Shown: positions 37,842-63,719 of the stretch, one piece after another
Position numbering within the stretch: the first letter of the stretch is position 1
Layout: each line of letters starts with the position of its first letter
Program-made: the position numbers and the translations under genes
IMG/VR virus record: IMGVR_UViG_3300025736_000010
Span: 48,897-112,896 of that record
DNA length: 64,000 nucleotides
Origin: a virus
Reading direction: 5' to 3' (one strand)
Notes under the pieces: generated by a model
What the model saw: the letters and a program-made list of their open reading frames with translations, nothing else
Databases searched by the model: none
What the model was told of the DNA's origin: nothing

Positions 37842-37920
37842 GTTGGCGGCAAGGGCATCAGGCAGCATTGCCTATCCTACGGGTTGCCCGGTCGTCAACA
37901 AATAAACTTGCCGTAGGAGG
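37842..37920 (+). ncRNA. Structured pseudoknot leader RNA, copy 1
   Basis: Three stems plus loop pairing to the RBS; same topology as 53857-53933. Confidence 0.6.
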
Positions 37921-37926
37921 TCGAGA

Positions 37927-38484
37927 ATGAAAGAGAAGTACGATGAAGAAATTATTGGAGAACGATGGGAACCAGTTGTTGGCTATAAAGGATGGTACGA
38001 GGTTAGCGATATTGGAAGAGCGCGTAATGTAGCGGACAGAAAGCATACATTCGTTGGTAAGATTCTGAAGCAACGCATAATTAGCAGTGGCTATTGCGGC
38101 ATTAGTCTTTGTAGAAATGGCGATCAACATGATGCGATTGTCCACCGACTAGTTATGGCCGCATTCGTCGGCCAATGCCCAGAAGGCAAAGAGGTCAACC
38201 ATAAGGATGGCGATAAAACCAACAATAGATTGGACAACCTAGAGTATGTAACACAATCTGAGAATATGATTCACGCATTTGATACTGGACTACATTCTCT
38301 CGGTGGCGAGAAAAACAATATGAGTAAATTGACTGAGGAGAACGTGCATGAAATTAGGCGGCTTTTGCGTGCTGGGTTGACGCATAAATCTATTAGCGCT
38401 CTTTTCAATGTTTCTCGCTCTTGTATTGGCCTGATCGCAACAGGGGAAAGATGGGCCTATCTAAAAGAAGAAGGGGAGGAATAG
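37927..38484 (+). CDS. NUMOD4-HNH homing endonuclease with C-terminal HTH
   Basis: WEPVVGYKGWYEVSD.G; VNHKDGDKTNNRLDNLEY. Confidence 0.9.
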   Translation: MKEKYDEEIIGERWEPVVGYKGWYEVSDIGRARNVADRKHTFVGKILKQRIISSGYCGISLCRNGDQHDAIVHRLVMAAFVGQCPEGKEVNHKDGDKTNNRLDNLEYVTQSENMIHAFDTGLHSLGGEKNNMSKLTEENVHEIRRLLRAGLTHKSISALFNVSRSCIGLIATGERWAYLKEEGEE

Positions 38485-45632: not shown

Positions 45633-48482
45633 ATGACAAAATTAAATAGGATAGATAGGTACTTGAGTCGGGAAGGCTGGGAAATCAGAGAGAATAGCAA
45701 TATGGGGTACTCGCTACAGGGTTTGAACGTGAGTATAACTGAAAATGAAATTTCAAAATATTGGCTGAATGAGGTATATCCCAAGGATATTAAGGAGGCG
45801 CACGAGAGCGGGGACTTTCATATTCACGACCTTGGAACGTTGGGCTCATACTGTGTGGGATGGGACTTAATGGACCTTCTTACTAAGGGATTTAAGGGTG
45901 TTCGAGGGAAGATCGAATCTCTCCCAGCAAAACATCTAAGAGTTGCGATGTTGCAGATAGTTAATTTCATGTATACGCTACAGGGGGAAACGGCAGGAGC
46001 ACAAGCGTTCTCTAATGTCGATACATTTCTTGCTGCTTTTATTAGGTCTGACAATGTTTCATACGAAGATTTGAAACAAAATGTCCAAGAATTTATATTC
46101 AATTTGAACGTCCCGACTCGCGTTGGGGCGCAAGCGCCATTCACAAACTTCACTTTAGATTTAGTCGTTCCAGACCATCTAAAGAAACTCCCAGCCATCG
46201 TTGGAGGGAAGCCGTGCGATTTTACGTATGGTGAACTACAGCATGAAGTTGACATGTTTAACAGAGCATTCGCTGAAATTATGATTGAGGGCGATGCTGG
46301 TGAAAGACCATTCACGTTCCCAATTCCCACATATAATCTAACAGAAGATTTTGACTGGGAAAACCCTATATACAATCCAATTTGGGAAATGACGGCCAAG
46401 TACGGCACCCCGTATTTTTCTAATTTTATTAACAGCGATATGAATCCCGAGGATGTCAGAAGCATGGCTATTCTTGGTTCACAGAATGTAATATATAAGA
46501 ATGGGAATGGGAGGGTTTCTATAGATGAAATTAGAAACATTGTTTCTAGGTGGATAAGCAGCAAAGAAAAACCAAGCTATAGCATACTTAATAATGGAAA
46601 ATTTGTTAGCATCTCAGACATGTTTGAAGTCCCGTATGATAAATACGATAAGTATGTGTCTATCATGCTTGATAATGGGTTGAAGCAGAATTTCTCGATG
46701 CAGCATAAATGCCCTGTGGTGCGCGACGGAGAGATAACAAACGTTGAGAGCCAAGACCTAATTGCTGGCGATATGCTTCTTTTTGCAAAAAGAGCATATG
46801 ATATAGATGAGGCAATTGGTAGCTACGAAGCCGGATTAATGGTTGGTTATTTTCTTGGAGAAGGATGGAAACAAACACATAGTGATTCTGAAATAAACTT
46901 CGCCATAAACATAGAAAGGGAAGACATAGTTAAAAGGATATATGATTTCTTTACTGCAATCGGGTGTGAAGTATCGTATTATAAACAGGAAGATGTGCAC
47001 ATATTCAAGGTTCACGTTTATGGCAGACAGGCCGTTGGGTTTGTATCTCAATATATTCGTGGTACAACAGCAAAGACAAAAAGGATAGACTATAAAACGT
47101 GGAACACAAGCCTTCTTTTTAGGGAGGGAATGTTTGAAGGATACCAAGATACTGATGGAAGTAAAAAGGTAAGAAATATAGCACACACTACTAATAAAAA
47201 GCTCGTTGAAGATCTTGTTGTCCTTTGTTCTTCTATTGGTAGAGGAGTTTCTTATTCTGTGAATAAAAACAATACCAGATACTTCAAGAAGGATAAGTCG
47301 GATTTTGAACGCTTTACAAGCTATAAGCTGGAAGAAAGAGATTACAACGATTTTAATGACGACTATTATACTGTTGATGTTAAGTCTGTTTCTTTTGAGA
47401 ACTCAAAATCGGATGTTGTTTATAATTTTACAGTTTCTACAAAAGAACATCTATATGAACTTCCTAATGGTATAGTCACACACCAATGCTGTAGGCTGCG
47501 GATCAACAACGGAGATCTATACAAAAGGGGCGGCGGGTTATTTGGAGCAAATCCCAAGACTGGAAGTTTAGGTGTAGTCACAATTAATTTGCCTAGAATT
47601 GGGTGTATCGCAGATAACGAAGAGGAGTTTTTAGATATTCTTACTGGGCTTATGTGGAAGGCAAAAGACTCTTTAGAAATTAAGAGAGAACTTCTAGAAA
47701 AGCTAACAGAACAAGGGCTTTATCCGTACTCTGAGTTTTATCTTAGAGATATTAGTGTTAGTGGGAAAGGATACTGGCATAATCATTTTTCGACAATCGG
47801 CACAATTGGGATGAATGATGCTTTGTACAATTTGCTCGATACAGATATTATGTCTGAAGAGGGGAAGGAATTTGCAATTAGGGTTTTATCGCATATGAGA
47901 GAGGTCATTTCATTGTTTCAGAACAACACTGGGAATATTTACAACTTGGAAGCAACCCCCGCAGAATCCGCAAGCTTCAAACTAGCGCTGAAAGACCTTA
48001 AATATCTTGACGACATCAAGTTTTATAACATAGACGTTGTTGGCGGGGATACTCCGTATTATACGAATTCTTCCCAATTGCCTGCATCATCTGGGCTTAA
48101 TTTATTTGATTCTCTAGATTTACAAGACGAGCTACAGGTATTGTACACTGGAGGGACTGTGTTCCATACTTTCCTTGGCGAGCGAGCGCCTGATATTGGC
48201 TCGTTGAAGGCTCTCATCAAAAAGATTGCGACAAACTATCATTTGCCTTACTTTTCCATAACTCCGACCTTTTCCGTATGCCCTAATCATGGGTACGTTG
48301 CTGGAGAACATTTGTTTTGCCCAGAATGTGAGGAAAGATGCGAGATATATTCCCGTGTTGTTGGCTACATAAGGCCGCTTGATGCGTTTAATGATGCCAA
48401 GGTCGCCGAGTTCTTCCAAAGAGACAACTATACAGTTTCTGGGGATGTTCCAGAAGACGACTTGACAAACACCAAAGAATAG
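45633..48482 (+). CDS. nrdD: Anaerobic (class III) ribonucleotide reductase with intein
   Basis: HIHDL, GAQA, FTFPIPT, spliced SMCCRL, EATPAES, YSRVVGY glycyl-radical motif; no ATP cone. Confidence 0.95.
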   Translation: MTKLNRIDRYLSREGWEIRENSNMGYSLQGLNVSITENEISKYWLNEVYPKDIKEAHESGDFHIHDLGTLGSYCVGWDLMDLLTKGFKGVRGKIESLPAKHLRVAMLQIVNFMYTLQGETAGAQAFSNVDTFLAAFIRSDNVSYEDLKQNVQEFIFNLNVPTRVGAQAPFTNFTLDLVVPDHLKKLPAIVGGKPCDFTYGELQHEVDMFNRAFAEIMIEGDAGERPFTFPIPTYNLTEDFDWENPIYNPIWEMTAKYGTPYFSNFINSDMNPEDVRSMAILGSQNVIYKNGNGRVSIDEIRNIVSRWISSKEKPSYSILNNGKFVSISDMFEVPYDKYDKYVSIMLDNGLKQNFSMQHKCPVVRDGEITNVESQDLIAGDMLLFAKRAYDIDEAIGSYEAGLMVGYFLGEGWKQTHSDSEINFAINIEREDIVKRIYDFFTAIGCEVSYYKQEDVHIFKVHVYGRQAVGFVSQYIRGTTAKTKRIDYKTWNTSLLFREGMFEGYQDTDGSKKVRNIAHTTNKKLVEDLVVLCSSIGRGVSYSVNKNNTRYFKKDKSDFERFTSYKLEERDYNDFNDDYYTVDVKSVSFENSKSDVVYNFTVSTKEHLYELPNGIVTHQCCRLRINNGDLYKRGGGLFGANPKTGSLGVVTINLPRIGCIADNEEEFLDILTGLMWKAKDSLEIKRELLEKLTEQGLYPYSEFYLRDISVSGKGYWHNHFSTIGTIGMNDALYNLLDTDIMSEEGKEFAIRVLSHMREVISLFQNNTGNIYNLEATPAESASFKLALKDLKYLDDIKFYNIDVVGGDTPYYTNSSQLPASSGLNLFDSLDLQDELQVLYTGGTVFHTFLGERAPDIGSLKALIKKIATNYHLPYFSITPTFSVCPNHGYVAGEHLFCPECEERCEIYSRVVGYIRPLDAFNDAKVAEFFQRDNYTVSGDVPEDDLTNTKE
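46467..47486 (+). mobile_element. Intein (340 aa) with LAGLIDADG domain, Ala1 and C-terminal Gln
   Basis: RSM/AILGSQ...VYNFTV...ELPNGIVTHQ/CCRL; GYFLGEG and EGYQDTDG. Confidence 0.9.
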
Positions 48483-48490
48483 TATATAAT
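48462..48490 (+). promoter_or_regulatory. Sigma70 promoter
   Basis: TTGACAAAC...TATAAT, 17-nt spacer. Confidence 0.85.
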
Positions 48491-48495
48491 GATTT

Positions 48496-48613
48496 TTGTG
48501 CGGTTGCGGCTTCTTAGGAAGATCTGACGTGCGAACGGCAGGCGGAAAGCAAGTCGATATGACCACTGCAACCCATAAGATCGGGAAGGCACGGCTCCCG
48601 GCCAGCCGCACAA
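48496..48613 (+). ncRNA. tRNA-like structured RNA, copy A
   Basis: 11-bp closing stem TTGTGCGGTTG/CAGCCGCACAA starting at the predicted +1. Confidence 0.6.
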
Positions 48614-48636
48614 TCTAAAGCAACAAGGGAGAAACC

Positions 48637-48927
48637 ATGAAAACAGTAGAAGTGCATCTGGGGTATTTCAAACAGGGGGATGATTTACAGTCCTGCATAG
48701 AGGAAGAAGGCAACAACGCAAAGGCACTTTATTTGCTTGCTGAAAGATTAGAGGGAGTCGTTAAACACATTGACAGCATTTCTAGTGTCTTCACCTCAAA
48801 AACTCACATAGATATATGTGCCGACACTCATTACATTGCTATTACATGCGAAGACGAAGTAGCGCAAAAACTAGTAGATGAGGGCTTGGCATATTTTCCA
48901 GAATACGATGAAGAAGATGGCCTATGA
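48637..48927 (+). CDS. Hypothetical protein
   Basis: AGGGAG RBS. Confidence 0.6.
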   Translation: MKTVEVHLGYFKQGDDLQSCIEEEGNNAKALYLLAERLEGVVKHIDSISSVFTSKTHIDICADTHYIAITCEDEVAQKLVDEGLAYFPEYDEEDGL

Positions 48928-50666: not shown

Positions 50667-51017
50667 ATGAAAATAGCACAAGAAACAGCTGAGTACATCT
50701 ACAACAGACAGATATCTGACTACCCGATGTACGTTGACGAACTTGAGTCGTTCATTGCGTTTAAGATTAACGGCGGTGAAACACCAAAACATATCAAGGT
50801 TAATCTTGACCTTATTCCAGTAAAAGAATGTTTGCCTACAAACAAAGAGGCAATGTGGTGTCTTGAGATTGTACGCATAAACACATGCGGAGAACGCGAA
50901 CGTGATTTCGCTGAATATGATGATGGCCGGTGGTTGGCTGTTGACGGGACAGGCGATATATACAAAAAAGTGACTCATTGGTCAACAATCCCCGGCTTGA
51001 CAAACGCCGAAGAGTAG
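50667..51017 (+). CDS. Hypothetical protein (VTHW motif)
   Basis: IPVKECLP...VTHW; AAGGAG RBS. Confidence 0.55.
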   Translation: MKIAQETAEYIYNRQISDYPMYVDELESFIAFKINGGETPKHIKVNLDLIPVKECLPTNKEAMWCLEIVRINTCGERERDFAEYDDGRWLAVDGTGDIYKKVTHWSTIPGLTNAEE

Positions 51018-51025
51018 TGTATAAT
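50997..51025 (+). promoter_or_regulatory. Sigma70 promoter of tmRNA
   Basis: TTGACAAAC...TAGTG TATAAT. Confidence 0.85.
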
Positions 51026-51053: not shown

Positions 51054-51418
51054 GGGGGCGACTTTGGAATCGAGCGGTTACAGGAAGACATGATTGCAAG
51101 CGTAGCGCCAACTACTAAACTGGCAACAAAAACAAAGTTCAACATTAAAACACTCTTCGCTAATGCGAAGGATCGAGTCGTAAGCTTCGTCAGTGGACTC
51201 TTCTCGGTCAACGCCACACTGGCAAACGCAGTACCTGTCCCAGCTTAGAGCAAGGGACCTACAGAGGCTTTCCTGGTTGAGCCAATACTAATCGACCAAG
51301 TGGTGGAACGACCGAAGCTGGTCAACCCCAAGGCATCCATGCCTAACTGGATATGCTTGTAGACGTTGTGTAGAATGTAGATCGTGACTCGGTGTTCGAA
51401 TCACCGACGCCTCCACCA
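51054..51418 (+). ncRNA. ssrA: tmRNA
   Basis: GGGGGCG/CGCCTCC acceptor with G3:U70, GGAATCGA D-region, GACTCGGTG-TTCGAAT-CACCG T arm, ACCA end, internal tag frame; 365 nt. Confidence 0.92.
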
Positions 51419-53856: not shown

Positions 53857-53933
53857 CAGGCGGCCTAAGTCGTGGGTCATATTGATCCATCTCATGGAAC
53901 GATGCGGGTCGCCTGACAAAATAACCATGAGGT
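53857..53933 (+). ncRNA. Structured pseudoknot leader RNA, copy 2
   Basis: Same topology as 37842-37920 with compensatory changes. Confidence 0.6.
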
Positions 53934-53940
53934 GTTAGGA

Positions 53941-54483
53941 ATGAAGGAGATGGAAAATTGGAAAGACGTAGTTGGCTATGAAGGATGGTATGAGATTAGT
54001 GATTGGGGGAATGTCAAGAGGGTAAAGAAATGGAAAGGCGCAGTTGTGGGGAGGGTTCTCAGGAATCAGACAGATAAGTATGGATACAGGAGTGTCTATC
54101 TCAATAGAGACGGGAGCCGCAGGTTTTTCAGAATCCATCGTCTAGTCGCGGCGGCGTTTATTGGTGTATGCCCTGACGGCAAGGAAGTTAATCATAAAGA
54201 TGGGCGTAAGGCGAATAACCATTTAGAGAATCTTGAATATGTAACATCGTCTGAAAACCAACGCCATTCGTATGCCATGGGATTAAGGTCTAATCGCGGG
54301 GAGAAGGCGCCAAACAGCAAGTTGAAAGAAGAAGATGTGCGTAAGATAATTCTGCGTATTGGGAAAGAAACGCATAAATCAATCGCTGCGGATTTTAACG
54401 TAGGGAGATCGACCATTGCTGCTATTGCGTGCGGTCAAAATTGGGCGTATCTAAAAGAGGAGGACGATGACGAACGAACTTAA
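53941..54483 (+). CDS. NUMOD4-HNH homing endonuclease with C-terminal HTH
   Basis: WKDVVGYEGWYEISDWG; VNHKDGRKANNHLENLEY. Confidence 0.9.
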   Translation: MKEMENWKDVVGYEGWYEISDWGNVKRVKKWKGAVVGRVLRNQTDKYGYRSVYLNRDGSRRFFRIHRLVAAAFIGVCPDGKEVNHKDGRKANNHLENLEYVTSSENQRHSYAMGLRSNRGEKAPNSKLKEEDVRKIILRIGKETHKSIAADFNVGRSTIAAIACGQNWAYLKEEDDDERT

Positions 54484-58574: not shown

Positions 58575-58739
58575 CTAAAGAATAGTCATGTTCTCGAATT
58601 CTCTAGCATTTCTGTATTCGTCTTTTATTTTGATTGTGGCGGCAATGAATGATGTTGCATACACTAAAGCATATGCGCGAGCATCTTCATATCCCTGGCA
58701 ATAATGATCGTACATAAACCACACTAGAAATGTCTTCAT
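58575..58739 (-). CDS. Small hypothetical protein
   Basis: GGGAGG RBS; MKTFLVWFMY. Confidence 0.6.
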   Translation of the reverse strand: MKTFLVWFMYDHYCQGYEDARAYALVYATSFIAATIKIKDEYRNAREFENMTIL

Positions 58740-58756
58740 ACATCCTCCCTTTGTTG

Positions 58757-58868
58757 TTGAGCGACTAGTCAAGCCTAAGAGCTACCTGCCCATAAGGGCC
58801 GCTGGGTCTTTCGAGGTTACTCGTTTGCTCAACGCTACTGTTAACCTTTGTTCGCTATAGTCGCTCGA
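58757..58868 (-). ncRNA. tRNA-like structured RNA, copy B
   Basis: 9-bp closing stem GAGCGACTA/TAGTCGCTC just after promoter 58906-58878 (TTGACA-17-TATGAT). Confidence 0.55.
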
Positions 58869-58975
58869 TTCTGTCAGATCATACACTAAAACTCCAATGA
58901 TGTCAACCATATAGTTAGCGGCTTGCAATCGGTACGTTTTTGTGTATACTGTGGCTATCTGAAGGAGGCGCGACA

Positions 58976-60450: not shown

Positions 60451-60523
60451 ACGCCCGTAGCTCAGCGGACAGAGCAGCGGTCTTCTAAACCGCTGGCCGA
60501 AGGTTCAAATCCTTCCGGGTGTA
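60451..60523 (+). tRNA. tRNA-Arg(UCU)
   Basis: Full cloverleaf; loop CTTCTAA; T loop TTCAAAT; CCA not encoded. Confidence 0.93.
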
Positions 60524-61908: not shown

Positions 61909-61984
61909 GCTCCCGTAGCTCAGTTGGAAGAGTATCGGTCTTATATGCCGGTTGCCGCAGGTTCGAGTCCTGCCGGGAGTACCA
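61909..61984 (+). tRNA. tRNA-Ile(UAU)
   Basis: GCTCCCG/CGGGAGT acceptor, loop CTTATAT, GTTCGAGTC, ACCA end. Confidence 0.88.
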
Positions 61985-62278: not shown

Positions 62279-62344
62279 TTGATGGCTGCGGCGAGACGCA
62301 AGCGTTTCGGCAATCCGGCTCGAACCCGGCCAGCCGCTCTTCAA
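62279..62344 (+). ncRNA. tRNA-like structured RNA, copy C (minimal)
   Basis: TGGCTG/CAGCCG stem, GAGACG/CGTTTC hairpin, CCGG-CTCGAAC-CCGG T-arm-like hairpin. Confidence 0.5.
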
Positions 62345-62355
62345 GGAGGTATGTA

Positions 62356-63719
62356 ATGGGTCTATTTACAATTGGCATACTGGTATTTGCGCTGTTTTGG
62401 TGTCTTAACGAGATGTAAAGGAGCTAACATGAAGACGATAGAATTTGAGATAGCTAACAGTAAAAATCGTATACGAGGAATTGTGTATAGTGAAGTTCCG
62501 AATGGATCTGTATTTACAGGGTTAGTTTATACACCCGGCGGTGACGGTGAGGGTATGTTCGTCAAGGCCAATAATGGTGCATTTATAGCCGTTATCTACC
62601 ATCCATGCCTTGCTCCGGGAAGCAAGTGGACTGGATGCAATAAGATTTCTTTCTATGGCTATAAGGCAGTAAACAAAATCACAGTTGAGGTGTAGCATGT
62701 ACAAAGAATGTAGAAAAGACGCCAGGATAGTAAACGCAGCAAAAGACGCATATAACGCCCTGGATTCTCTTAACTTACACCATGTACTCGTAGAATGGTA
62801 TGAAGTAGTACGCCTAGCTATTGGTGCTTACGCTTCAGATCACGGACTTGGACTTGATTGGGTTGAAGGCCATCCGCTACACATAGTAATGTTGCATAAG
62901 ATAAGTGAATTGATGGGATTTGAGTTTCGGGAGAATGCAAACGCTGACATTGATAACGCCTACGATTGGGCATCTTCGCTGATAAAAGAACATGAATAAC
63001 CATCTCCACCTCCTTGAACTAGGGGCCATTAGTTATGAGCTGGTGGTCCCGCTCCTTTATTCAAAACGCCTGAAAGGGCTTGACAACGAGCGCGGAATGC
63101 GTATACTGAGGTTGTAGAACAGGGGAGGAATTATGAAGTGCGTATGCGGGTATGAGTACGAAGTGGACTGGAGTAACGGACAGCGCAAGGCTTTATCTGG
63201 TGATGAAGAATTCATCACAGTTGATACGAAGGCTACAATAGAATATACGGGATACCATGGAGGAAACCACGATGTTACCGTATGCGCCTGTCCGAAATGC
63301 GGAACACTCCGAATTGATAGGCACTAAACAACGGTGGTTGAACCCTAATTGCGAAGTTAAAAAGAGTAACCCCAATAGAGTATACAATAGGAAAGGGGAG
63401 GATAGAATGGACAGTAGAGACTTTGCGGAACTGGTAACAAAAGCATATGACGAATATGACGAAGGTGAGACTACCTTAAACGACTTTGAGAACGCAATCC
63501 GTGATTTAGTAGCAAACTTTATAGAAGGGGCTTACAATGGATAATGACTGGACGAAGACAATCGCGGGATTGAGAAAAAAGAACGATGAGATGGCAATAC
63601 TGTTGAAATGTGCGCTTGCTGATCTTGAGGGCATCATGCCGGATTATGAACGATCACATCCTGGATGGACTACGATTGAAGAAATACGAGCATTTCTTAA
63701 CTTTGGCGATAACACTTGA
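62356..63719 (+). other. Small hypothetical genes (62356, 62429, 62697, 63133, 63407, 63537)
   Basis: RBS-preceded ORFs; hairpin 63022-63050 and promoter near 63080. Confidence 0.5.

What the first reader, a model, noticed from the sequence alone, without database searches (positions are those of the whole stretch)
48496..48613. Family of tRNA-like RNAs with conserved ends and variable interiors (copy A)
Seen: three dispersed elements share a 5' end GRYTR-YRGC and a 3' end YYGRC-YAGYCGC: A (GCGGTTG-CGGC...CCGGC-CAGCCGC), B on the minus strand (GCGACTA-TAGC...TTGAC-TAGTCGC) and C (TGGCTG-CGGC...CCGGC-CAGCCGC). The closing stem covaries (GGTTG/CAGCC, GACTA/TAGTC, GGCTG/CAGCC). YRGC sits where tRNA has U8-A9-G10-C11, and a hairpin abuts the 3' strand like a T arm. 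Interiors differ in length and sequence. A and B begin just after a promoter, and all three end just upstream of an RBS. Inference: tRNA-mimic leaders or sRNAs (RNase P/Z substrates, decoys for anticodon nucleases, or scaffolds carrying variable cargo).
Basis: partly seen in the sequence, partly recalled or inferred. Interest (0 to 1): 0.78.

Follow-up and report, generated by a model that had tools for sequence, protein, structure and literature searches.

The report
Closed structured leader RNAs of a phage
An uncultivated 113-kb phage carries five related stretches of folded RNA, each clamped by a conserved helix between a strong promoter and the next gene's ribosome site; they are real and uncatalogued, but they are not tRNA look-alikes and most likely act as optional mRNA leader modules.

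Summary
Elements A (48496-48613 +), B (58866-58759 -) and C (62282-62337 +) share a closing helix and the 3' motif YYGRC-YAGYCGC: 3 matches against 0.07 expected. Two more copies (D, E) lie in the same virus record outside the window. The helix covaries: 39 of 40 cells pair over 8 positions, with compensatory changes at 5 positions. Internal mismatches are only G-U, on the transcribed strand. In A, D and E the helix starts at the predicted +1 of a consensus TTGAC-17-TATAAT promoter. In four of five copies it ends 7-13 nt before the Shine-Dalgarno.

The tRNA-mimic reading is not supported. ARAGORN and Rfam (tRNA, tmRNA, Y RNA/YrlA, c4, ribozymes) find nothing. The 'U8-A9-G10-C11' block is absent from D and E. 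Only C has a T-loop-like hairpin.

Relatives show that the leader is an optional module. One metagenome contig keeps D at 95% identity. Another keeps the promoter and gene without the leader, and a third form lacks both promoter and leader.

Best reading (about 0.37): cis-acting 'closed' 5' leaders that bury the mRNA 5' end and insulate the ribosome site, spread by cassette shuffling. Processing into separate small RNAs cannot be excluded. The function is untested, and no expression data or close genomes could be reached. This scan had already noted D and E on this genome.

The parts
48462..48490 (+). Promoter of element A (TTGACA-17-TATAAT, 12/12); it overlaps the end of nrdD
48496..48613 (+). 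Element A (118 nt). The P1 5' strand is 48496-48506 (TTGTGCGGTTG) and the 3' strand is 48603-48613 (CAGCCGCACAA), giving 11 bp with one U-G. CCGGC (48598-48602) directly precedes the 3' strand.
   Evidence: (MFE -44.7 kcal/mol, z -2.6)
48627..48639 (+). GGGAG ribosome site and ATG of the 96-aa ORF that heads the small-ORF/nrdG (radical SAM activase) operon
   Evidence: predicted unpaired probability of the SD is 0.60
58878..58906 (-). Promoter of element B (TTGACA-17-TATGAT, 11/12)
58759..58866 (-). Element B (108 nt). The P1 5' strand is 58866-58858 (GAGCGACTA) and the 3' strand is 58767-58759 (TAGTCGCTC), giving 9 bp, all Watson-Crick. TTGAC (58772-58768) precedes the 3' strand. B differs from A only by transitions, which are compensated in the helix.
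   Evidence: (z -3.0)
58737..58749 (-). GGGAGG ribosome site and ATG of a 54-aa ORF downstream of B
62282..62337 (+). Element C (56 nt), the smallest copy. It is intercistronic, with no promoter of its own. The P1 strands are (A)TGGCTG 62282-62288 and CAGCCGC 62331-62337, giving 6 bp. A 7-bp hairpin carries a CAAG loop. A CCGG-CUCGAAC-CCGG hairpin abuts the 3' strand.
   Evidence: (z -0.2)
62345..62418 (+). GGAGG ribosome site and a 20-codon hydrophobic ORF (ATG 62356) downstream of C, followed by an 88-aa ORF at 62429
   Evidence: reading of the sequence; the coding status of the 20-codon ORF is inferred

Best explanation
The elements are a paralogous family of cis-acting 'closed' 5' leader domains of phage mRNAs. 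Host RNA polymerase starts at a consensus sigma-70-type promoter. The first 8-11 transcribed bases (GYGGYUG type) pair with a segment (YAGYCRC) that ends 7-13 nt before the Shine-Dalgarno. The whole variable interior is thereby tied off as one self-contained domain.

This arrangement would have two effects. First, the 5' end of the message is buried in a helix, which is the arrangement of known 5'-terminal stem-loop stabilisers that block 5'-end-dependent decay. Second, the ribosome site sits in a short, A-rich, unpaired tail whose context does not depend on what lies upstream.

The promoter-leader unit behaves as an optional cassette that is gained, lost or swapped between related phages. The shared closing sequence reflects common descent with compensated drift.

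**Shown:** the family itself, the covarying helix, its sense-strand polarity, its position relative to predicted promoters and ribosome sites, and its optional presence in relatives.

**Inferred:** the transcription start sites, the stabilising and insulating effect, and the role of the interiors.
For: **Family and helix**
- Five copies share the motif plus a helix. Chance gives about one weak hit per shuffled genome.
- In P1, 39 of 40 cells pair in the first 8 positions. Changes are double-sided at positions 1, 4, 6, 7 and 8. The only internal irregular pairs flanked by good pairs are U-G on the transcribed strand.
- All five copies are oriented with the downstream gene, on both genome strands.

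**Position**
- The helix begins 5-7 nt after the -10 hexamer in A, D and E, which is the predicted +1.
- The predicted unpaired probability of the first six bases is 0.00-0.20 for A, D and E. The SD stays largely accessible (0.35-0.86).
- Other long leaders of the same genome are also closed from +1.

**Variation in relatives**
- The D ortholog in contig L031 differs by 7 substitutions.
- A-U to G-U in the CAC/GUG stem and G-U to A-U in the CGCGG/CUGCG hairpin both keep pairing.
- A further variant (P0015) changes the P1 U-G pair to U-A and a C-G pair to U-G.

**Optional presence**
- L032 has the same promoter type and gene but no leader.
- P0013 and P0014 lack both promoter and leader.
- The neighbouring leader F (121 nt, z -4.2) is replaced in L031 by a 7-bp hairpin between identical promoter and RBS.

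**Literature**
- 5'-terminal stem-loops as stabilisers are established knowledge (Emory et al. 1992 and Sharp and Bechhofer 2005, as cited in PMC7509114).
Against: - No transcript ends are known; the start sites are predictions from promoter consensus.
- B has about 5 unpaired bases before the helix. C has no promoter and sits inside an operon.
- E is followed by a second promoter-like site (TTGACT-17-TATGCT) before its gene, so that gene need not carry E.
- A simple hairpin would suffice for 5' protection. Interiors of 42-139 nt are therefore unexplained.
- D (z +0.3), E (z -1.0) and C (z -0.2) are no more stable than shuffled sequence.
- About a dozen equally strong promoters in the genome have short, unstructured leaders.
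- The 95% identity of the D ortholog equals that of its flanks, so it is not evidence of special constraint.
Confidence: 0.37

Rival explanations
1. The elements are processing modules. The stack of P1 on the adjacent helix, with its continuous 3' strand YYGRC-YAGYC, is a cleavage site for a host or phage endoribonuclease. Candidates are RNase III as in T7, lambda N-leader and SP82 early mRNAs, or RNase P/Z as for the phage's own tRNA-mRNA and tmRNA-mRNA cotranscripts. The interior would be released as a separate small RNA with a trans function, such as a decoy or scaffold, and the mRNA would receive a new 5' end.
For: - The layout is the same as that of the phage's true tRNA-Arg and tmRNA: promoter or upstream gene, RNA closed by its ends, then RBS and ORF.
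- E has its own promoter and is followed by another promoter-like site, as an independent RNA gene would be.
- C is intercistronic.
- The 3' strand at the junction is near-palindromic (CUGGCCAG in D and E, GACUAGUC in B), which would suit a dimeric enzyme.
- Dispersed paralogous RNase III sites in phage early mRNAs are established (Panganiban and Whiteley 1983, as cited in PMC4838370).
Against: - P1 is 6-11 bp and the stacked helix adds 4-7 bp. This is short and variable for RNase III.
- There is no T arm except loosely in C, no CCA, and no tRNA-model score.
- In A, D and E there would be nothing 5' of P1 for RNase P to remove.
- No terminator or other defined 3' end follows.
Confidence: 0.25
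2. The elements are regulatory leaders. The conserved junction and helix would be the binding site of a phage or host protein, or part of a switch between alternative pairings, that controls translation or transcription of the downstream ORFan genes.
For: - The junction shows sequence conservation beyond pairing: YYGRC before the 3' strand in all five copies.
- Internal decoy segments can pair with the 5' strand: GGUUGCGG with CUGCAACC in A, and UGGCUG with CAGCCA in D. The MFE of A switches to that pairing when coding sequence is added.
- C follows a small ORF whose C-terminus resembles ribbon-helix-helix regulators (my reading of the sequence; no Pfam hit).
Against: - The SD is not sequestered in the predicted folds.
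- No terminators lie downstream.
- The interiors differ, so no common ligand is likely.
- The alternative pairings are unsupported by covariation.
- The downstream genes are unrelated and of unknown function.
Confidence: 0.15
3. The elements work only at the DNA level. The repeats would be recombination linkers or relics of cassette shuffling, like the PeSL promoter/stem-loop cassettes of T4-type phages, with no function for the RNA fold itself.
For: - The leaders sit at mosaic boundaries. Identity between this phage and L031 drops from 92-98% to 44-68% exactly at the start codon after D.
- Leaders are present, absent or replaced between relatives.
- Short modules are shared among otherwise different leaders: A with F, and C with G.
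- All copies lie in the ORFan-rich region that spans the record's ends.
- PeSL precedent: PMC2839356.
Against: - Compensatory transitions and G-U-only irregularities on the sense strand point to selection on RNA pairing.
- Ortholog changes keep pairs.
- Orientation always follows transcription.
- The shared arms of 7-13 nt are short for homologous recombination.
Confidence: 0.13
4. The elements are processive antitermination RNAs of the HK022 put type, which modify RNA polymerase soon after the promoter.
For: - The position is promoter-proximal.
- boxA-like words follow P1 in C (CGCUCUUCA) and, weakly, in B and D. The resemblance is recalled from memory, not tested.
Against: - No convincing intrinsic terminators lie in the downstream operons.
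- The put architecture of two adjacent stem-loops is absent.
- The interiors are not conserved.
Confidence: 0.04

Closest known systems
5'-terminal stem-loop mRNA stabilisers (ompA 5' UTR, aprE leader, SP82 early-mRNA stabiliser)
   Same: A helix includes or nearly includes the first transcribed base. It lies upstream of an accessible ribosome site and acts in cis.
   Different: Those are simple hairpins with no paralogous family. Here a long-range helix closes a 42-139-nt variable domain, and five copies share its sequence.
RNase III processing sites of phage early mRNAs (T7 R0.3-R18.5, lambda N leader, SP82 sites)
   Same: Both are dispersed, sequence-related structured elements in one phage genome. 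They lie after promoters or between cistrons, directly upstream of ribosome sites.
   Different: Those are single irregular hairpins of about 20 bp or more. Here the helices are short and the structure is a multi-branch domain. Cleavage is untested.
PeSL mobile regulatory cassettes of T4-type phages (PMC2839356, PMC4122927)
   Same: Both combine a strong sigma-70-like promoter with a conserved stem-forming sequence. Both flank ORFan genes in plastic regions, and both coincide with insertion, deletion and replacement between close relatives.
   Different: The PeSL stem-loop is a compact terminator next to the promoter. Here the paired arms flank a long transcribed interior downstream of the promoter, and they show RNA-type covariation.
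tRNA-like domain of tmRNA, and tRNA-like or Y RNA (YrlA) mimics
   Same: The topology is shared: the ends pair, a helix stacks on the 3' strand, and the interior is variable. B's 3' end, CUUGACUAGUC, resembles the 3' end of a vertebrate Y RNA as I recall it from memory.
   Different: There is no T loop (except loosely in C), no D-loop analogue, no CCA, no model score and no Ro gene. The 5' partner needed for the Ro-binding bulged helix is absent.

Membership tests
tRNA / tRNA-like (Rfam RF00005, clan CL00001) | Cloverleaf recognised by ARAGORN or the tRNA covariance model | tested here: not met
   ARAGORN finds only tRNA-Arg 60451 and tRNA-Ile 61909. cmscan gives no tRNA-clan match at E up to 10 on A, or up to 5 on B-E.
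tRNA / tRNA-like (Rfam RF00005, clan CL00001) | A 5-bp T stem with a 7-nt UUCRANY loop directly abutting a 7-bp acceptor 3' strand | tested here: not met
   Only C has a 7-nt loop (CUCGAAC), on a 4-bp stem with one spare base. A has a 3-nt loop. B, D and E use a long-range helix.
tRNA / tRNA-like (Rfam RF00005, clan CL00001) | U8-A9-G10-C11-like junction conserved across the family | tested here: not met
   The junction reads CGGC, TAGC and CGGC in A-C, but CACG and AGAA in D and E.
Y RNA / YrlA | Model match, and a Ro (TROVE) gene in the genome | tested here: not met
   No Rfam match. No TROVE match at E up to 1 in the 112.9-kb record, which is estimated 78% complete.
tmRNA | Match to RF00023 | tested here: not met
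   The only match is the separate tmRNA gene at 51054-51418.
c4 antisense RNA and known self-cleaving ribozymes (hammerhead, twister, pistol, hatchet) | Match to the Rfam models | tested here: not met
   No match at permissive thresholds.
5'-terminal stem-loop stabiliser | Helix within a few bases of the transcript 5' end | tested here: inconclusive
   This is met for A, D and E if transcription starts about 7 nt after the -10 hexamer. B has about 5 free bases and C has no promoter. The start sites have not been measured.
5'-terminal stem-loop stabiliser | Longer mRNA half-life when the element is present | not testable with these tools
   This needs a decay assay.
RNase III processing site | About two turns of near-continuous double helix | tested here: not met
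   P1 is 6-11 bp. With the stacked helix the total is 10-17 bp, and one strand is interrupted.
RNase III processing site | Cleavage by RNase III | not testable with these tools
   This needs an enzyme assay or end mapping.
PeSL-type mobile regulatory cassette | Conserved promoter plus stem sequence at the boundaries of insertions, deletions and replacements between close relatives | tested here: met
   However, the stem here is not a terminator next to the promoter.

The most novel reading that the evidence does not exclude
The elements are excised from their transcripts as a family of small RNAs. These would share a minihelix-like handle (P1 stacked on the adjacent helix) that is recognised by one host or phage enzyme, while each displays a different cargo domain. 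That would make them a phage-encoded set of decoy or scaffold RNAs, for example against host nucleases or defence systems.
Probability: 0.1. Interest if true: 0.8.

Novelty: new variant of a known kind. Interest (0 to 1): 0.42.

Why it matters
If the reading is right, this phage shows a natural counterpart of synthetic 5'-UTR insulators. It would be a portable promoter-plus-closed-leader cassette that can be placed in front of any accessory gene, and that evolves by duplication, compensated drift and swapping.

The family also offers a compact test set of five paralogs of 56-157 nt. With it one could ask how a conserved closing helix affects mRNA stability, processing and translation in phage early expression.

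It is a new RNA family absent from Rfam. So far, however, it is seen in only one phage lineage and has no functional data.

Tried and rejected
**Readings rejected**
- **tRNA or decayed tRNA:** ARAGORN and Rfam are negative.
- **Y RNA/YrlA:** B's 3' end looks like a Y RNA end, but the 5' partner for the bulged Ro helix is missing. There is also no Rfam match and no TROVE gene.
- **Hammerhead-like core in A (CUGACGU...GGAAAG):** this does not fit the consensus and no model matches.
- **Coding leader:** the D leader is open in frame with its gene and was called as a 151-aa protein in databases (P0001, P0006). However, the 4 nonsynonymous and 2 synonymous changes against L031 show no coding constraint. 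A strong RBS precedes the inner ATG, and homologs start at that ATG, all of which argues against coding.
- **RBS masking:** only A has a CUCCC loop complementary to its GGGAG. The SD is mostly unpaired in the ensembles.

**Searches for homologs that found nothing useful**
- GenBank phages by DNA.
- IMG/VR by the gene after A; the relatives are 36-40% identical and lack the element.
- IMG/VR by NrdD.
- IMG/VR by terminase.
- IMG/VR by the gene family after D; the 15 loci contain no motif.
- Two promoter-helix-motif patterns in IMG/VR, which gave only chance hits in coding DNA.
- GTDB genomes by an exact D word and by terminase.
- Earlier scan notes by sequence.

**Tools unavailable**
Because of this, neither orthologs from the 14 Logan/ENA contigs nor any RNA reads could be examined.
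- The remaining third of contig Ga0307928_10001026, which should carry the orthologs of B and C, was not fetched because of the stated half-record limit.

Full report
**1. What is there**

The window is bases 48897-112896 of a 112,896-bp IMG/VR virus record, estimated 78% complete. Its terminase is only about 24% identical to those of SPO1-like Bacillus phages, and no DNA match exists among GenBank phages.

| Element | Window coordinates | 5' end ... 3' end |
|---|---|---|
| A | 48496-48613 (+) | TTGTGCGGTTG-CGGC ... CCGGC-CAGCCGCACAA |
| B | 58866-58759 (-) | GAGCGACTA-TAGC ... TTGAC-TAGTCGCTC |
| C | 62282-62337 (+) | ATGGCTG-CGGC ... CCGGC-CAGCCGC |

The 3' motif YYGRCYAGYCGC occurs three times in the window, against 0.07 expected.

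Searching the whole record gave a fourth copy, and a promoter survey gave a fifth:
- D: genome 10900-10744, minus strand, GTGTGGCTG ... CTGGC-CAGCCGCAT.
- E: genome 19924-19796, minus strand, GATGGCTG ... CTGGC-CAGCCATC.

A combined motif-plus-pairing search returns these five and no other with 8-9 pairs. Shuffled genomes give about one 6-bp hit. Earlier first-stage notes of this scan had already flagged D and E as a family.

**2. The closing helix is an RNA helix**

I counted pairs from the inside outwards in the five copies.
- 39 of 40 cells in the first eight positions are Watson-Crick or G-U.
- Positions 1 and 4 are G-C in four copies and A-U in B.
- Position 6 is C-G, U-G or U-A.
- Position 7 is G-C or A-U.
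- Position 8 is U-A, A-U, G-U or G-C.
- B differs from A only by transitions, each compensated.
- Irregular pairs flanked by good pairs are U-G on the transcribed strand. On the other strand they would be A-C.
- All five copies point the same way as the downstream gene, whichever genome strand that is.

A database variant of D (P0015) changes the codon covering position 6 so that U-G becomes U-A. The D ortholog in L031 and P0015 also change two inner hairpins in pair-preserving ways: A-U to G-U, G-U to A-U and C-G to U-G.

The helix is the robust feature. Whole-element stability is unremarkable for some copies:

| Element | z-score |
|---|---|
| A | -2.6 |
| B | -3.0 |
| C | -0.2 |
| D | +0.3 |
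| E | -1.0 |

**3. Context**

The record has more than 30 near-consensus TTGAC-17-TATAAT promoters.
- In A, D and E the 5' strand begins 5-7 nt after the -10 hexamer, which is the predicted +1.
- In B it begins about 5 nt later.
- C has no promoter. It lies between a 65-aa ORF and a GGAGG site that heads a 20-codon hydrophobic ORF.
- In A, B, C and D the 3' strand ends 7-13 nt before the Shine-Dalgarno, in an A-rich tail.
- In E a second promoter-like site intervenes.

Predicted ensembles keep the first bases paired in A, D and E and leave the SD mostly open.

Other long leaders in the genome have the same closed design but different sequences. They include leader F at genome 12396 (minus strand) and the two leaders before HNH endonuclease genes. 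About a dozen promoters have short, plain leaders.

Short modules are shared between otherwise different leaders:
- The GGCUUCUUA(G/C)GAAG hairpin plus CUGAC occurs in both A and F.
- AGCGUUUCGG...GCAAUC occurs in both C and G.

The downstream genes have no family assignment, except that the operon after A contains a radical-SAM activase (nrdG-like).

**4. Not tRNA-like by test**

- ARAGORN and Rfam find the two true tRNAs and a tmRNA, but nothing at any element, even at E up to 5-10 on short slices.
- The proposed U8-A9-G10-C11 block is not kept in D and E.
- A T-loop-like loop occurs only in C.
- No CCA follows.
- No Ro/TROVE gene is present.
- The five bases before the 3' strand pair with a nearby segment in A and C, but with a distant one in B, D and E. 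What is shared is therefore a helix stacked on P1 with a continuous 3' strand, not a T arm.

**5. Relatives**

Close relatives are scarce in the collections I could reach. The gene after D gave the only useful set.

- Metagenome contig L031 (Ga0307928_10001026) is syntenic with the left arm of the record and wraps to its right end, so the record's two ends are contiguous in the relative. It carries D at 95% identity, the same level as its flanks. Identity collapses exactly at the start codon of the downstream gene.
- L032 has the same promoter type and gene with no leader.
- P0013 and P0014 read straight from the upstream gene into the D gene, so both promoter and leader are absent.
- At the F locus, identical promoter and RBS enclose a 121-nt leader here and a 7-bp hairpin in L031.

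The promoter-leader unit is therefore an optional, exchangeable module.

**6. Mechanism**

The best-supported reading is a cis-acting closed leader. P1 buries the 5' end and ties off the interior, leaving a constant, open ribosome site. This matches the known behaviour of 5'-terminal stem-loop stabilisers (PMC7509114). It also explains why P1, rather than the interior, is conserved.

The reading has weak points:
- The interiors are unexplained.
- C sits inside an operon.
- E is followed by a second promoter-like site.
- No transcript data are available.

The main rival is processing at the P1 junction, by RNase III as in T7 and SP82 (PMC4838370) or by RNase P/Z as for the phage's own tRNA and tmRNA cotranscripts. 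That would release small RNAs. The topology and the near-palindromic junction fit this rival, but the helix lengths and the failed tRNA tests do not.

Three further readings are less likely:
- A protein-binding or switch leader.
- A purely DNA-level PeSL-like cassette (PMC2839356).
- A put-like antiterminator.

**7. Verdict**

This is a real, covarying, uncatalogued paralogous RNA family in one uncultivated phage lineage. The tRNA-mimic idea is not supported. The function is inferred, not shown.

Noticed in passing
window 51054-51418 (+), promoter 50997-51025: The phage encodes a tmRNA. Rfam RF00023 matches at 57 bits over the full model length, but ARAGORN does not call it. It follows a 12/12 consensus promoter and has an encoded CCA. 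An RBS and ORF follow directly. A 13-codon ORF with AGGAGG overlaps its 5' end.
   Followed up: partly
window 60451-60523 and 61909-61984 (+): tRNA-Arg(UCU) and tRNA-Ile(UAU) lack an encoded CCA. tRNA-Arg is followed within about 25 nt by an RBS and ORF. This is the same 'closed RNA, then RBS' layout as the leaders.
   Followed up: partly
genome 12361-12245 (-), outside the window (locus L013); L031 2920-2950: Leader F is 121 nt, with a 17-bp closing helix starting at +1 and z -4.2. In the related contig L031 it is replaced by a 7-bp hairpin (UAGCCGC-GUGU-GCGGUUA) between identical promoter and RBS. F ends in CCUGAC-AGCCAC, a one-base-shorter version of the family's 3' motif.
   Followed up: partly
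window 37842-37929 and 53857-53943 (+): Two further closed leaders start at +1 of consensus promoters, in front of NUMOD4/HNH-like endonuclease ORFs. First-stage notes propose an RBS-masking pseudoknot. I confirmed only that they are closed from +1 (z -2.3 and -4.8).
   Followed up: partly
genome 19795-19740 (-), outside the window (locus L012): A second promoter-like site (TTGACT-17-TATGCT) lies between element E and the RBS of its downstream 143-aa gene. The gene can therefore be transcribed with or without E.
   Followed up: no
L031 13029-14143 versus genome 112701-111966, and L031 12860-13032 versus genome 497-328: The related contig runs across the two ends of the virus record. The record is therefore circularly permuted or nearly complete at that junction. 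All five elements fall in one contiguous ORFan-rich region of about 36 kb.
   Followed up: partly
window 45633-48482 (+): The NrdD ORF is 949 aa, far longer than usual. First-stage notes call an intein in it. The peptides that the search for related loci picked from it looked like intein or endonuclease sequence, and they found no relatives.
   Followed up: no
window 62356-62418 (+): A 20-codon hydrophobic ORF (MGLFTIGILVFALFWCLNEM) has a strong RBS directly after element C and overlaps the RBS of the next gene. It is a possible small membrane peptide.
   Followed up: no
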